A stretch of 64,000 nucleotides of DNA from Nanohaloarchaea archaeon B1-Br10_U2g21 (GTDB taxonomy: Archaea > Nanohalarchaeota > Nanosalinia > Nanosalinales > Nanosalinaceae), in NCBI GenBank assembly GCA_001563915.1, contig LKMP01000001.1:1-64000 (forward strand). The letters run 5' to 3'. Position numbers and translations under genes: made by a program. Shown here piece by piece: positions 11,521 to 43,910 of the stretch. How positions within the stretch are numbered: position 1 is the stretch's first letter; every line of letters begins with the position of its first letter. The notes under the pieces are model-generated. The model did no database searches. It had not been told where the DNA came from and was given only the letters and a program-made list of their open reading frames with translations.

Positions 11521-11892
11521 GTGTTTATGGATGAGGATGAGTTAAAGGATCAGTTGGTAGAGAAGGCTAAAAGAGTTTTAGATGATCAGTTGACGAGTCG
11601 TGAGAAGATCGAGCAGAGGGCTCTGAAGGATAAAGGTAAAGGCGGTGTCTGGAGTAAGGAAGAGATTGAGTATCTAAAGAATAATCGTAATAGCATGAGT
11701 AATAAGGAACTTGAGAATTTTTTTGTGGAAGATGAGTTCCAAGATGAGGATTGGTCGCCGTTCTCTAGAACTGAAGAGCGTTATATATTACAGAGCTATG
11801 GAACTTCAGATCTTGAGACTATTGCTGAAGGACTTGATAGAACAGTTGAGGAGGTAGAGAAGAAAGTAAGGATGATGGGTCTTGAAATCTAG
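11521..11892 (+). CDS. Hypothetical protein with two Myb/SANT-like repeats
   Basis: WSKEEIEYLKNNRNSMSNKEL and FSRTEERYILQSYGTSDLETIAEGLDRTVEEVEKK. Confidence 0.65.
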   Translation: MFMDEDELKDQLVEKAKRVLDDQLTSREKIEQRALKDKGKGGVWSKEEIEYLKNNRNSMSNKELENFFVEDEFQDEDWSPFSRTEERYILQSYGTSDLETIAEGLDRTVEEVEKKVRMMGLEI

Positions 11893-11913: not shown

Positions 11914-12654
11914 ATGAGTGATATTGTTGACAGAGCGTTAAGCTCTACGAAAGAAGAATTAGCTGGCGAAGACAGAGAAAAGCATATTGTTCGTGCAGTT
12001 AAGATGATGGATAGGGTAGAAGCTTCTATAACTGAAAAAGATGAGGACTTCAAGGAATGGTACTCCCTACACTTTCCAGAACTAGTAGAGGAAATTGATA
12101 ATACGGAACACTTAGTTAAGATTCTTAAGAAAAGTGTAGAGCGTTCAGAACTTGAGTCGTTCAGCGAGCTAGCAGAGAATTCTAAGGGGTCTGCGCTGGG
12201 AGACAGAGAAAAGAAAATGATTGCGTCAGCGGTAGAAAATCTGGATTCTGACTTAGAGTTGAGAGAAGAACTCAACGAATATGTTAGAGAAGCTATGGCT
12301 GAAGAGTCCCAAAATTTGACAAAACTGACAGGCCATGTATTAGGAGCTAAACTGGTTGCATTGGCAGGAGGATTAGAGGAATTAGCGAAGAGTCCTGCGT
12401 CTACAGTACAGATGCTTGGAGCGGAGAAGGCTTTGTTCCGTTATCTTAGAGGCAAAGGTACGCCGCCGAAGCATGGAGTGATCTTTGAGCATCGTTTTGT
12501 GAATCCCTTATCTGAATCGGAGAGAGGTAAGATGGCGCGTTTCATGGCCAATAAAGTTGTGATGGCTGCCCGCCTTGATGTTTACGGCGATAAAGACAAG
12601 GGAGAAGAGTTGTTAGAGGATTGCAGAAAACGTTTTGAAGAGCTGAAGGCATAG
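11914..12654 (+). CDS. nop5: Nop5 (Nop56/58) box C/D RNP protein
   Basis: KEWYSLHFPEL, PASTVQMLGAEKALFR and PPKHGVIF. Confidence 0.95.
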   Translation: MSDIVDRALSSTKEELAGEDREKHIVRAVKMMDRVEASITEKDEDFKEWYSLHFPELVEEIDNTEHLVKILKKSVERSELESFSELAENSKGSALGDREKKMIASAVENLDSDLELREELNEYVREAMAEESQNLTKLTGHVLGAKLVALAGGLEELAKSPASTVQMLGAEKALFRYLRGKGTPPKHGVIFEHRFVNPLSESERGKMARFMANKVVMAARLDVYGDKDKGEELLEDCRKRFEELKA

Positions 12655-12950: not shown

Positions 12951-13598
12951 ATGGAAGAAATTCAACCCGGTATCTACGCGAGTAGGAATAAACTTTTTAC
13001 TGAGAATTTGGAGCCTGGAGAAACGGTGTATGGAGAGGCATTGGTACAGGAAGGCGGTGTTGAGTACCGAAGATGGGTTGAGAACAGGAGCAAGGTAGGT
13101 GCTGCTGTGAAGAAAGGGATGGACATAGAATTGAACAGAGGTGATAATGTTCTCTACTTGGGCGCGGCCTCAGGCACTACGGTCTCGCATTTCTCCGATA
13201 TTCTTACAGATGGAGTGATTGTGGGAGTCGAGTACTCTGATTCTGTTATTAGAGGTCTTGTGGAGTTGGCGGAAATGAGAGATAATGTTGCGCCGGTATT
13301 AGGTAACGCGAGGAATCCTGAGGAGTATGAGGAGTATCTGGGTGAGTATGATTACATTTTTCAGGATATTTCGCAGCGTGATCAGCCAGAGATTTTCTTG
13401 AAGAATGTTCATCGCTATCTGAAAGAAGATGGTATAGGTCTTTTAGCTGTGAAGGCGAGGTCTATTTCTGATTCTAGGTCTGCTGAAGAGATTTTTGAAG
13501 AGGTTAGGGAAAAAGTCTCTGAAGAGCTGAATATTGTTGATGAAGTTGATTTAGCTCCTTTTGAGAAGGATCATATTGTTTTGAAAGTCAGGCTTTAG
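12951..13598 (+). CDS. flpA: Fibrillarin-like 2'-O-methyltransferase
   Basis: VYGE, RSK, VLYLGAASGTTVSHFSD and QDISQRDQ. Confidence 0.96.
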   Translation: MEEIQPGIYASRNKLFTENLEPGETVYGEALVQEGGVEYRRWVENRSKVGAAVKKGMDIELNRGDNVLYLGAASGTTVSHFSDILTDGVIVGVEYSDSVIRGLVELAEMRDNVAPVLGNARNPEEYEEYLGEYDYIFQDISQRDQPEIFLKNVHRYLKEDGIGLLAVKARSISDSRSAEEIFEEVREKVSEELNIVDEVDLAPFEKDHIVLKVRL

Positions 13599-20705: not shown

Positions 20706-21077
20706 TTATTCTTCTTTTTCAAGCAGTTCTGCAGCTTTTTCTGCGACATCTTCTATGTCTGATTCTGCATTTCCTGACTGTGTTACTGCAATTGCTGCGC
20801 TCTGAACGTTGATTCCTGCAGCTAAACCTAGTTCTTCCTTATCTGGAACAAATGTGTAAGGAATATCTCTTTCACCTGCTAATGCTGGCAGATGCATAAC
20901 TACTTCCTCAGGAGAAACATTTTCTGCAATTACAATCAAATCTGCATTGCTTCTCTCAACAGCTTTTGTGACTTCGTTTGTACCAATAGCTACTTTGCCA
21001 GTGTCTGCTGCTTTCTCAATTGTATCATAGGTTTTTTCTGCAAGTGAATCGTTTGGACTGAATTTGTTGTAACTCAT
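20706..21077 (-). CDS. rpl7ae: 50S ribosomal protein L7Ae
   Basis: GTNEVTKAVER, IAENVSPEEVVMHLP and ELGLAAGI. Confidence 0.96.
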   Translation of the reverse strand: MSYNKFSPNDSLAEKTYDTIEKAADTGKVAIGTNEVTKAVERSNADLIVIAENVSPEEVVMHLPALAGERDIPYTFVPDKEELGLAAGINVQSAAIAVTQSGNAESDIEDVAEKAAELLEKEE

Positions 21078-43470: not shown

Positions 43471-43558
43471 GGTAAAACAACTCGCAAATCTATTGGATGC
43501 TGATGTATTTAAGGATAACCAAACCAATCAAAAAATACGGAGACAGGCCTTTAAACAT

Positions 43559-43632
43559 GGGTTCGTGGTCTAGTTGGTTATGACACCGCCTTGACATGGC
43601 GGAGATCCCCGGTTCGAATCCGGGCGAACCCA
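43559..43632 (+). tRNA. tRNA-Val(GAC)
   Basis: GGGTTCG...CCGCC-TTGACAT-GGCGG...GGTTCGAATCC...CGAACCCA. Confidence 0.96.
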
Positions 43633-43766
43633 TACCCCTGTGGAAAAAAGAAAAGCTAGTGTAAAAATACTAAGGAATAATATCTTTGTCGATAAAAACA
43701 GGGAAAAAGAAGCGTGATATACCTTGCTTCTAAAAACGTTAGTCACTCAAACAATAATACTGAATA

Positions 43767-43910
43767 GGGAAAGTAGCTCAGGGGTTAGAGCGCTGCGCTC
43801 ATAACAATGATTATGAGCAATGAGGAGGTCTAAAAGCCTTCGATGATTAAAGTTCGTATCGCTTTATGTGAGATACGCAGAGGTCCCGGGTTCGATTCCC
43901 GGCTTTCCCA
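43767..43910 (+). tRNA. tRNA with CAT anticodon (probably elongator Met), 71-nt intron at 37/38 (43804-43874)
   Basis: GGGAAAG/CTTTCCC-A acceptor stem, CTGCG-CTCATA^A-CGCAG anticodon arm, and a bulge-helix-bulge with CTCA/TGAG central helix. Confidence 0.92.
43804..43874 (+). ncRNA. Putative intron-encoded box C/D guide RNA
   Basis: ATGATTA boxes (43807, 43843), ATGA D' box (43820), and TTATGAGC antisense to the host anticodon loop. Confidence 0.6.

What the first reader, a model, noticed from the sequence alone, without database searches (positions are those of the whole stretch)
43767..43910. tRNA(CAU) intron looks like a box C/D guide targeting its own wobble C34
Seen: the 71-nt intron contains TTATGAGC (43811-18), the exact reverse complement of the host anticodon loop GCTCATAA (43797-804), followed one base later by ATGA (43820-23). 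The fifth base upstream of that box (G43815) pairs with C34 (43800), as the N+5 rule of C/D guides requires. ATGA is followed by a 6-bp stem (GGAGGT/GCCTTC) and g-ATGATTA (43843-49). This is a D'/C' kink-turn in which the consensus C-G pair (CUGA/RUGAUGA) is replaced by a compensatory A-U pair. A second ATGATTA opens the intron, and it could form a K-loop with GTGA near the 3' end once the intron circularises. CGTATC (43855-60) is also complementary to the 3' splice junction. Established: tRNA-Trp introns of euryarchaea act as self-guides, while Haloferax uses a separate sRNA for tRNA-Met C34. I recall a C/D RNA in a Nanoarchaeum tRNA-Met intron, so this may be a DPANN trait rather than wholly new. 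L7Ae, Nop5 and fibrillarin are all encoded in this window.
Basis: partly seen in the sequence, partly recalled or inferred. Interest (0 to 1): 0.72.

Follow-up and report, generated by a model that had tools for sequence, protein, structure and literature searches.

The report
Self-guiding tRNA-Met intron, one kink-turn
The intron of this small archaeon's methionine tRNA gene carries a protein-binding kink-turn next to a short stretch that pairs with the tRNA's own anticodon, a conserved stripped-down form of a known RNA guide that most likely directs ribose methylation of the wobble base.

Summary
Window 43767-43910 is an elongator tRNA-Met(CAU) gene with a 71-nt canonical intron. In the intron, UUAUGAGC (43811-18) is the exact complement of the anticodon loop. 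One base later come AUGA, a 6-bp stem and G-AUGAUUA.

The core is conserved. All 27 intron-bearing tRNA-Met genes from relatives keep guide, 1 nt, (A/C)UGA, a covarying stem and AUGAU(U/C)N, with C34 always at N+5.

The same module, with its guide changed to CUGGAGG, sits in tRNA-Trp introns. It also sits in the Nanoarchaeum equitans tRNA-Met intron, published as a "potential" C/D sRNA.

Best reading (about 0.7): a cis-acting, single-kink-turn C/D-type guide for Cm34. The guide hairpin and the splicing fold exclude each other and are nearly equal in predicted energy.

This is a new variant of a known kind. The scan noted the same design earlier on other DNA. No modification or RNA data could be obtained.

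The parts
43767..43803 (+). 5' exon of elongator tRNA-Met(CAU), positions 1-37; C34 = 43800
   Evidence: Rfam tRNA 58.3 bits; ARAGORN with introns allowed; G1-C72. The other CAU tRNA of the genome is the initiator (A1-U72, GGG/CCC anticodon stem). A tRNA-Ile(UAU) gene is present and TiaS was not found.
43797..43804 (+). Target strand GCUCAUAA (G31-A37 plus the first intron base)
   Evidence: Exact complement of 43811-18; paired in the minimum-free-energy fold.
43804..43874 (+). 71-nt canonical (37/38) intron
   Evidence: The BHB can be drawn as CUCA 43798-801 / UGAG 43869-72, with 3-nt bulges at 43802-04 and 43873-75 (my reading; forced fold).
43805..43810 (+). Hairpin-loop spacer CAAUGA between target and guide (3-27 nt in relatives; not conserved in sequence)
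43811..43818 (+). 8-nt antisense guide UUAUGAGC; G43815 pairs with C34
   Evidence: 27 of 27 genes; helix 96.5% paired; U36 pairs with A in 26 elements and with G, as a G-U wobble, in 10.
43820..43823 (+). D'-type box AUGA (CUGA in three more distant relatives), 1 nt after the guide
   Evidence: AUGA in 24 of 27, CUGA in 3 of 27.
43824..43841 (+). C-stem hairpin of the kink-turn: GGAGGU / GCCUUC with loop CUAAAA
   Evidence: covarying, 100% of cells paired. In relatives the loop expands to as much as 98 nt.
43842..43849 (+). 3-nt bulge G-A-U plus the G.A core: C'-type box AUGAUUA preceded by G
   Evidence: AUGAUUA in 24 of 27, AUGAUCU in 3 of 27; the bulge's first base (L1) is always G or A.
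43850..43868 (+). Variable linker; holds CGUAUC (43855-60), which is not conserved
43869..43872 (+). UGAG, 3' strand of the central BHB helix; competes with the guide for C32-A35
43875..43910 (+). 3' exon (positions 38-73)
11914..12654 (+). Nop5 (246 aa): coiled coil plus C-terminal domain only
   Evidence: Pfam Nop, 1e-50. Residues 15-245 align to residues 130-375 of the solved S. solfataricus Nop5.
12951..13598 (+). Fibrillarin (215 aa)
   Evidence: Pfam Fibrillarin, 1e-66.
20706..21077 (-). L7Ae (123 aa)
   Evidence: Pfam Ribosomal_L7Ae, 6e-27; ORF.

Best explanation
The intron of the elongator pre-tRNA-Met carries a stripped-down box C/D-type methylation guide that acts on its own host.

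Proposed steps:
1. In the unspliced transcript the 8-nt antisense element folds back over a 6-nt loop onto G31-A37 plus the first intron base.
2. One nucleotide downstream, AUGA and G-AUGAUUA form a kink-turn, closed by a covarying hairpin stem.
3. L7Ae binds the kink-turn and recruits Nop5 and fibrillarin.
4. Fibrillarin methylates the 2'-OH of the nucleotide paired with the fifth base upstream of the box, which is the wobble C34.
5. The guide helix and the central helix of the splicing motif (CUCA/UGAG) both use C32-A35, so the RNA must refold before the splicing endonuclease can cut. This suggests the order: methylate, then splice.

Shown here: the sequence elements, their conservation, the stem covariation, the fixed N+5 geometry, retargeting of the same module in tRNA-Trp, the competing folds, and the presence of the three protein genes.

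Inferred, not shown: protein binding, methylation, action in cis rather than in trans, and the order of events.
For: 1. Conservation. 27 of 30 loci fetched from relatives hold a complete intron-bearing tRNA-Met gene; the other 3 are exon fragments at contig ends. All 27 have target, 3-27 nt, 8-nt guide, 1 nt, (A/C)UGA, a 3-10 bp stem, G/A, AUGAU(U/C)N, although intron length runs from 65 to 203 nt.

2. Covariation. On 36 aligned elements 97.5% of cells pair. The C-stem has 5 of 6 pairs changed on both sides, and 0 of 500 shuffles reach the covariation score (this alignment was fitted to the model). RNAalifold on an unfitted MAFFT alignment predicts the same two helices.

3. Spread within the phylum. 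The pattern CTCATA-N3-33-TRTGAG-NN-MTGA occurs in 48 of 70 genomes (25 of 28 high-quality ones) and in all five families; the reversed control pattern hits 5 genomes. The covariance model finds a match in 46 of 70.

4. Retargeting. tRNA-Trp(CCA) introns carry the same kink-turn, preceded by NUGGAGG, which is complementary to C31-G37 of tRNA-Trp, again with C34 at N+5. There are 22 distinct genes of this kind, including this genome's own at C16:83811-84044.

5. Agreement with known biology. Cm34 is made by box C/D RNPs in archaeal tRNA-Trp through its intron (passage in PMC7714728) and in elongator tRNA-Met (passage in PMC6601510 citing Joardar 2011). These are exactly the two tRNAs that carry the module here.

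6. Same layout elsewhere. It is present in N. equitans, where the intron accumulates as a stable RNA, and in 27 other archaeal records.

7. Competing folds. The guide conformer is the minimum-free-energy fold at -49.9 kcal/mol; the BHB-forced fold is -49.3 kcal/mol.

8. Machinery. L7Ae, Nop5 and fibrillarin genes are present, and one canonical C/D sRNA candidate lies at C4:19180-19240.
Against: - There is no conserved second (terminal C/D) motif, so this is a half-mer. As I recall, not from a call, half-mer C/D RNAs methylate poorly in vitro.
- The duplex is only 7-8 bp. In 10 of 36 elements the eighth pair is a mismatch.
- Nop5 of this family lacks the N-terminal domain that tethers fibrillarin in solved complexes, so the route of fibrillarin recruitment is open.
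- The 4b-4n position of the kink-turn is not consistently Watson-Crick across lineages.
- No RNA-seq, modification or binding data exist for this organism: one search listed only three RNA or possible-RNA runs, each holding 0.05 of the words, and none was laid.
- The target strand is an invariant anticodon loop, so guide-target covariation within tRNA-Met alone is nearly impossible to observe.
- The related genomes are kin, so counts across them overstate independence.
Confidence: 0.7

Rival explanations
1. Structural element only. The kink-turn binds L7Ae and the anticodon-intron helix shields the anticodon. Together they chaperone pre-tRNA folding, time or license splicing, or stabilise the excised intron, without any methyl transfer.
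For: - There is only one kink-turn and a short 7-8 bp duplex.
- Nop5 of this family lacks the fibrillarin-binding domain.
- Introns that pair with the anticodon loop are a general feature of pre-tRNAs (established knowledge).
- The guide fold and the BHB fold exclude each other and are nearly equal in energy, which would suit a splicing switch.
Against: - A purely structural role does not explain why the 1-nt spacing that puts C34 at N+5 is invariant in 27 of 27 tRNA-Met genes and 22 of 22 tRNA-Trp genes, while loop, stem and insert lengths vary freely.
- It does not explain why only the two tRNAs known elsewhere to receive guide-dependent Cm34 carry the module. The long introns of tRNA-Lys(CUU) and tRNA-Ile(UAU) in this genome lack it.
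- The fibrillarin gene is retained next to the Nop5 gene.
Confidence: 0.15
2. Same guide, but acting in trans. After splicing, the excised intron (linear or circular) assembles into an RNP and methylates other pre-tRNA-Met or mature tRNA-Met molecules, as was reported for the Haloferax tRNA-Trp intron.
For: - The title of Singh et al. 2004, seen in a reference list, calls the Haloferax intron RNP 'trans-acting'.
- The N. equitans intron is stable and abundant.
- In the window, position 38 of the mature tRNA is also A, so all 8 pairs survive splicing.
- In L015 and L022 the first guide base pairs with the mature A38 but not with the intron's first base, C.
Against: - The spacers are mostly 3-8 nt, as in a compact hairpin. 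Action in trans puts no constraint on spacer length.
- In L011 the first guide base pairs with the intron's C, not with the mature A38.
- Computation cannot separate cis from trans.
Confidence: 0.12
3. One reading: a two-motif C/D RNA in which the first ATGATTA (43807-13) is box C and pairs with GTGA (43868-71) as a K-loop once the intron is circularised. CGTATC would act as a second arm on the 3' splice junction.
For: All three elements are present in the window. CGTATC/GATACG has shuffle P of about 0.03.
Against: - The first ATGATTA occurs in 1 of 27 genes. It also overlaps the guide and leaves only 6 nt before the D' box.
- GTGA varies as a BHB strand does (UGAG, UGGG, AGAG), not as a box D would.
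- The arm is not conserved, even across the same genus: L005 lacks it and L012 keeps 5 nt of it.
Confidence: 0.03
4. Chance resemblance in an AT-rich intron.
For: Single short motifs such as ATGATTA are common: 157 copies in the 816-kb genome.
Against: Shuffle P = 0.0035 for the 8-mer alone. In addition there is order-wide conservation, stem covariation, and retargeting in tRNA-Trp.
Confidence: 0.01

Closest known systems
Nanoarchaeum equitans elongator tRNA-Met intron RNA (Randau 2012, Genome Biol 13:R63, PMC3491384; abstract and passages read; the figure itself was not visible)
   Same: - Same host tRNA, same canonical intron position and similar size (66 vs 71 nt).
- Read directly from the N. 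equitans record (L124), it has the same order of parts: UAUGAGC guide, 1 nt, CUGA, short hairpin, G-AUGAUCU. C34 is at N+5.
   Different: [quoted passage not shown] That reads the C box one register away from mine.
- In the passages I saw, the paper names no target.
- The window uses AUGA/AUGAUUA instead of CUGA/AUGAUCU and lacks the extra 6-GC hairpin.
- The spread across a whole phylum and the twin module in tRNA-Trp are not in the passages I read.
Box C/D guide in the euryarchaeal pre-tRNA-Trp intron (Haloferax volcanii, Pyrococcus; Clouet-d'Orval 2001, Singh 2004). Known to me from passages in PMC7714728 and from recall; PMC92551 is not held
   Same: A guide embedded in the intron, antisense to the host's own anticodon loop, with C34 at N+5. 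The guide fold and the splicing fold compete.
   Different: - The euryarchaeal intron has all four boxes (C, D', C', D) and a second guide for position 39.
- The element here has one kink-turn and one guide, sits in tRNA-Met, and has no conserved second arm.
Haloferax volcanii sR-tMet (Joardar 2011). Title seen in reference lists; PMC3256356 is not held; details are recalled
   Same: Same target nucleotide: C34 of the elongator pre-tRNA-Met, acting on the intron-containing precursor.
   Different: sR-tMet is a separate, trans-acting gene with terminal C and D boxes. Here the guide lies inside its own target transcript.
Human SNORD97 / SCARNA97 (Vitali and Kiss 2019, PMC6601510; passages read)
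   Same: C/D-guided Cm34 of elongator tRNA-Met, which shows that this modification is guide-dependent across two domains of life.
   Different: They are canonical trans-acting snoRNAs encoded in mRNA introns.
Circularly permuted C/D sRNA of N. equitans (sRNA24; Randau 2012, passage read)
   Same: With the hairpin read as the terminal stem, the order guide, D box, stem, C box is a permutation of a standard C/D RNA.
   Different: The permuted sRNA is completed by circularisation. In the present element the box order works in the linear precursor.

Membership tests
Canonical archaeal box C/D sRNA (two motifs) | Terminal box C (RUGAUGA) and box D (CUGA) forming a kink-turn | tested here: not met
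   No conserved terminal motif. The first ATGATTA occurs in 1 of 27 genes, and GTGA behaves as a BHB strand.
Canonical archaeal box C/D sRNA (two motifs) | Internal D'/C' motif | tested here: met
   (A/C)UGA ... G/A-AUGAU(U/C)N in 27 of 27 genes, with a covarying C-stem. The box sequences deviate from the consensus.
Canonical archaeal box C/D sRNA (two motifs) | Guide directly upstream of D/D' with the target nucleotide at N+5 | tested here: met
   C34 pairs with the fifth base upstream of the box in 27 of 27 tRNA-Met genes and 22 of 22 tRNA-Trp genes.
Canonical archaeal box C/D sRNA (two motifs) | Guide or spacer of about 12 nt between box C and box D' | tested here: not met
   The duplex is 7-8 bp, closed by a 3-27 nt loop, with no box C on its 5' side.
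Canonical archaeal box C/D sRNA (two motifs) | Assembly with L7Ae, Nop5 and fibrillarin, and SAM-dependent 2'-O-methylation | not testable with these tools
   The genes are present, but Nop5 lacks its N-terminal domain. No binding or modification data exist.
Kink-turn (K-turn) RNA motif | Canonical helix, 3-nt bulge, then tandem sheared G.A pairs | tested here: met
   From sequence geometry: 6-bp stem, bulge G-A-U, G45.A23 and A46.G22, then U.U and U-A. The stem covaries. The three-dimensional fold was not tested.
Intron-embedded self-guide of pre-tRNA (pre-tRNA-Trp type) | Lies in the canonical 37/38 intron, flanked by a BHB motif | tested here: met
Intron-embedded self-guide of pre-tRNA (pre-tRNA-Trp type) | Second guide aimed at position 39 of the 3' exon | tested here: not met
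   No conserved complement to the 3' junction or exon.
N. equitans-type tRNA-Met intron element | Elongator tRNA-Met intron with guide, D-type box, hairpin and C-type box in that order | tested here: met
   Direct comparison of the window with L124 from the N. equitans record.
N. equitans-type tRNA-Met intron element | Excised intron accumulates as a stable RNA | not testable with these tools
   The run search listed only three RNA or possible-RNA runs, each holding 0.05 of the words; none was laid.

The most novel reading that the evidence does not exclude
In this nanohaloarchaeal family the methylation-guide machinery has been rebuilt around single-kink-turn guides. Nop5 has lost its fibrillarin-tethering N-terminal domain, and the only recognisable tRNA guides are half-mers inside the tRNA-Met and tRNA-Trp introns.

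An active particle would then need either a new way of docking fibrillarin or two precursor tRNAs bridged by the Nop5 coiled-coil dimer. The two could be two copies, or Met with Trp, each supplying one kink-turn.

Methylation would then be a checkpoint that must be passed before the RNA can refold into the splicing-competent form.
Probability: 0.12. Interest if true: 0.85.

Novelty: new variant of a known kind. Interest (0 to 1): 0.58.

Why it matters
- It offers a reason why tRNA-Met and tRNA-Trp keep their introns even in very reduced genomes: the intron carries the guide for the tRNA's own wobble methylation.
- It defines a natural minimal C/D-type guide: one kink-turn, a 7-8 bp guide, acting in cis. 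That tests current two-motif models of C/D RNP assembly.
[quoted passage not shown] The passages I read of the 2012 paper call that RNA a potential C/D sRNA and name no target.
- Co-cultures of nanohaloarchaea exist (my recollection, not from a call), so Cm34 and L7Ae binding can be tested directly.

Tried and rejected
- Default ARAGORN missed the gene; allowing introns was needed.
- Papers PMC92551 (Clouet-d'Orval 2001) and PMC3256356 (Joardar 2011) are not held. What I say about them comes from other papers' passages, from reference lists, or from recall.
- Literature searches found no paper describing a self-targeting tRNA-Met intron guide in DPANN archaea other than Randau 2012. The library lacks most subscription journals, so this is not proof of absence.
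- The run search gave only DNA metagenome contigs holding at least half of the stretch, and three RNA or possible-RNA runs at 0.05 of the words. I laid no reads, so there is no expression, splicing or circularisation evidence.
- A regex scan of the genome for further single-kink-turn modules gave 85 hits, mostly in coding sequence, and was uninformative.
- A strict regex for canonical C/D sRNAs found one convincing candidate, C4:19180-19240. Its targets could not be predicted because no LSU rRNA gene was found in the assembly; the other rRNA genes were not searched for.
- The Pfam NOP5NT model does not reach its cut-off even in the archaeal control genomes, so it cannot show whether the Nop5 N-terminal domain is present. 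The alignment to solved structures was used instead.
- The small ORF upstream of Nop5 has no Pfam hit at E 1e-5 or better and no match to solved structures. I considered it as a replacement for the N-terminal domain but have no evidence for that.
- Searching 'phylum' returned the same 70 genomes as 'order'.

Full report
**What is there.** Window 43767-43910 is a tRNA gene: Rfam tRNA matches at 58.3 bits. The default run missed it.

The genome (816 kb, 24 contigs, 39% G+C, 92% complete) has one other CAU tRNA. That one is the initiator, with A1-U72 and a GGG/CCC anticodon stem. The genome also has a tRNA-Ile(UAU) gene. TiaS was not found, although the same search finds it in all four archaeal control genomes. 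The window's gene is therefore the elongator tRNA-Met.

- UUAUGAGC (43811-18) is the exact complement of GCUCAUAA (43797-804).
- AUGA follows after one base (43820-23).
- Then come the stem GGAGGU/GCCUUC (43824-29 / 43836-41) and G-AUGAUUA (43842-49).
- G43815, the fifth base upstream of AUGA, pairs with C34 (43800).

A perfect complement of 8 nt or more arises in 0.35% of 100,000 shuffles of the intron. Nop5, fibrillarin and L7Ae are encoded in the window.

**Comparison with relatives.** A BLAST of the precursor against 61 related genomes matched 49 of them. Of the 30 loci returned, 27 hold a complete intron-bearing tRNA-Met gene and 3 hold only exon fragments at contig ends. Introns range from 65 to 203 nt.

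All 27 genes share one layout:
- target GCUCAUA(A/C);
- a spacer of 3-27 nt;
- an 8-nt guide NU(A/G)UGAG(C/U);
- one nucleotide;
- AUGA (24 genes) or CUGA (3 genes);
- a stem of 3-10 bp whose sequence differs between genomes;
- an insert of 3-98 nt;
- G or A;
- AUGAUUA (24 genes) or AUGAUCU (3 genes).

C34 is at N+5 in all 27.

A covariance model built from 11 short-insert sequences matched all 36 loci that I then gave it. I had picked those loci from earlier hits. On that alignment 97.5% of cells pair. The C-stem has 5 of 6 pairs with changes on both sides and is 100% paired. None of 500 shuffles reaches the covariation score, and sliding the partners drops pairing to 31-45%. That alignment was fitted to the model. 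RNAalifold on the unfitted MAFFT alignment gives the same two helices.

Across the phylum, which here equals one order of 70 genomes, the model matches 46 of 70. A guide-plus-box pattern matches 48 of 70 genomes (25 of 28 high-quality ones), in all five families, against 5 genomes for the reversed control pattern. Not every pattern hit was checked individually, and some are chance, for example G000:C11:8573.

**The same module, retargeted.** The model's weaker hits, including one in this genome at C16:83909-83948 outside the window, turned out to be tRNA-Trp(CCA) genes with long introns. They carry the same AUGA, stem, G-AUGAUUA kink-turn. There it is preceded by NUGGAGG, which is complementary to C31-G37 of tRNA-Trp, so C34 is again at N+5.

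I parsed 22 distinct genes of this kind from the 37 loci L061-L097. A pattern search limited to spacers of 34 nt or less finds them in 22 of 70 genomes, against 3 control hits. The genome's own tRNA-Trp (C16:83811-84044) has a 65-nt spacer and had been missed by ARAGORN. The long introns of tRNA-Lys(CUU) and tRNA-Ile(UAU) in this genome do not carry the module.

Retargeting of one scaffold to two different anticodon loops is the strongest argument that the antisense stretch is a guide. tRNA-Trp and elongator tRNA-Met are also the two archaeal tRNAs whose Cm34 is reported to be made by C/D RNPs (passages in PMC7714728, and PMC6601510).

**Spread beyond the phylum.** One scan of 185,579 species genomes used a strict pattern (G31, spacer 3-33 nt, insert 8-38 nt).
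- ARAGORN finds a tRNA in 28 of the 80 listed loci.
- I parsed the 30 loci with archaeal-looking contexts. The 28 with a tRNA show the module. Two (L165, L168) have no tRNA and no stem and are chance hits. The remaining listed loci are bacterial chance hits.
- The 28 come from records titled Candidatus Nanohaloarchaea, Nanosalina, Nanohalobium, Nanoanaerosalina, Aenigmatarchaeota, Nanoarchaeia, Nanoarchaeota, Woesearchaeota, a Nitrososphaeria MAG, a Methanosarcinales MAG, several untitled "uncultured archaeon" records, and Nanoarchaeum equitans Kin4-M.

The nanohaloarchaeal records carry the window's exon sequences and the AUGA/AUGAUUA boxes. The window's lineage is therefore most likely nanohaloarchaeal.

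The N. equitans locus reads UAUGAGC-U-CUGA-CCC(gaaa)GGG-G-AUGAUCU, followed by a GC-rich hairpin, in a 66-nt intron. [quoted passage not shown] That is a C box read one register away from mine. No target is named in the passages I read, and I could not see the figure.

**Register and the "compensatory" pair.** In the window the stem ends at C43841. The three-base bulge is therefore G-A-U, and the sheared pairs are G45.A23 and A46.G22, followed by U47.U21 and U48-A20.

A-U at this position holds in 33 of 36 aligned elements. The CUGA-type elements have AUGAUCU, which puts C opposite C. Other lineages show C with G (canonical), C with U, A with G and A with A. The A-U pair is therefore compatible with compensation, but the position is not under a strict Watson-Crick rule across the wider group. 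For the G-AUGAUCU forms a second register (GAUGA against UCUGA) gives canonical pairs but leaves no bulge. I cannot decide between the two registers.

**What is not conserved.**
- The first ATGATTA (43807-13) occurs only in the window (1 of 27 genes). It overlaps the guide and lies 6 nt from the D' box.
- GTGA (43868-71) overlaps UGAG, the 3' strand of the central BHB helix. It reads GUGA in 17 of 27 genes. Elsewhere it varies to UGGG, AGAG or AGGG, which keeps pairing with CUCA but would abolish a box D.
- CGUAUC/GAUACG is significant only in the window (P about 0.03). Five of 27 genes have a complement of 5 nt or more, at different places.

There is thus one kink-turn and one guide. The proposed K-loop after circularisation and the second arm have no comparative support.

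**How it most likely works.** The minimum-free-energy fold of the precursor pairs G31-A38 with the guide and forms the C-stem (-49.9 kcal/mol). Forcing the full anticodon stem and the BHB helix gives -49.3 kcal/mol and keeps the C-stem. The two folds compete for C32-A35.

I infer the following sequence. L7Ae binds the kink-turn. Nop5 and fibrillarin join and methylate C34 in the guide conformer. The RNA then refolds into the BHB form and is spliced. Read with the hairpin as the terminal stem, the element is a circular permutation of a one-guide C/D RNA.

Binding, methylation, action in cis rather than trans, and the order of events are all inferences.

**Weak points.**
- It is a half-mer with only 7-8 bp of duplex.
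- There are no experimental data for this organism. One search listed only three RNA or possible-RNA runs, each holding 0.05 of the words, and I laid none.
- The Nop5 encoded here (246 aa) aligns to residues 130-375 of solved S. solfataricus Nop5, so it lacks the fibrillarin-binding N-terminal domain. In the same family all 24 Nop5 frames are 248-284 aa, whereas most of those in the other families are about 300-357 aa. One of those longer proteins aligns from residue 88-108 of the solved chains.
- The family with short Nop5 is also the family with AUGA/AUGAUUA boxes. These genomes are kin, so the coincidence is one observation, not many.

**Comparison and novelty.** The element works like the euryarchaeal pre-tRNA-Trp intron guide, but it fails two defining features of a canonical C/D sRNA: terminal C/D boxes and 12-nt spacing. 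It has no position-39 guide.

[quoted passage not shown] I did not find the following in the literature I could search:
- the assignment of C34 as the target;
- the one-kink-turn layout as a conserved design;
- its twin in tRNA-Trp;
- the AUGA/AUGAUUA variant;
- its presence across a phylum.

Earlier notes of this scan describe the same design on other genomes (e1-5066943 for tRNA-Met; e1-2786080 and e1-2111110 for tRNA-Trp). My tests agree with them.

Verdict: real, conserved, and a new variant of a known kind. Confidence in the Cm34 self-guide reading is about 0.7.

Noticed in passing
G000 contig C16:83811-84044 (same contig, outside the window); locus L061: tRNA-Trp(CCA) gene with an intron of about 160 nt that ARAGORN missed. 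The intron holds CUGGAGG-G-AUGA-GGC(auuaaa)GCC-G-AUGAUUA, the same kink-turn module aimed at its own C34.
   Followed up: yes
window 11914-12654 (+): Nop5 is only 246 aa and aligns to residues 130-375 of solved S. solfataricus Nop5, so the fibrillarin-binding N-terminal domain is missing. All 24 Nop5 frames of the same family are 248-284 aa, while most of those in the other families are about 300-357 aa.
   Followed up: partly
window 11521-11889 (+): A small acidic ORF (122 aa) lies directly upstream of Nop5, in the same frame but separated from it by two stop codons. A homologue sits in the same place in relative G005. It has no Pfam hit and no solved-structure match. It contains two W-x-x-EE-like repeats (my reading).
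   Followed up: partly
G000 contig C4:19180-19240 (+), outside the window: One canonical-looking C/D sRNA: AUGAUGA, 12 nt, CUGA, 13 nt, GUGAUGA, 14 nt, CUGA. Standard boxes therefore coexist with the AUGA/AUGAUUA variant. Its targets are unknown because no LSU rRNA gene was found in the assembly.
   Followed up: partly
G000 contig C24:18966-19092 (+), outside the window: tRNA-Ile(UAU) with a 54-nt intron, and no TiaS found in the genome. AUA is probably read by a UAU anticodon rather than by an agmatidine-modified CAU.
   Followed up: partly
window 43558-43633 (+) and loci L002-L029: tRNA-Val(GAC) lies just upstream of tRNA-Met, and this pairing is kept in most relatives. In several relatives (L015, L019, L023, L029) ARAGORN calls the tRNA-Val gene itself with a long intron of 53-111 nt.
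   Followed up: no
loci L005-L010, L014, L016, L019 and L012, L014, L019, L020, L023, L027, L029: Larger tRNA-Met introns hold extra conserved pieces. One is UUCUGGA inside the C-stem insert, complementary to UCCAGAA downstream of the C' box. Another is an inserted branch with a recurring YGAGAA ... UUCG(A/U) motif. Their function is unknown.
   Followed up: no
G000 contigs C22:48151-48286 (-) and C3:20337-20443 (-), outside the window: tRNA-Lys(CUU) has a 61-nt intron without the module. ARAGORN also calls a 'tRNA-Stop(tta)' with a 34-nt intron, which looks like a mis-called intron-bearing tRNA.
   Followed up: no
locus L146: A record titled as a Colwellia polaris MAG holds a nanohaloarchaeal-type tRNA-Val and tRNA-Met locus with the module. 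This is probably a binning contaminant.
   Followed up: no
locus L072 (G040) and loci L098, L110, L112, L138, L140: In some lineages the tRNA-Met gene has an extra insertion just 5' of the anticodon loop in addition to the module-bearing intron. This suggests a second, non-canonical intron.
   Followed up: no
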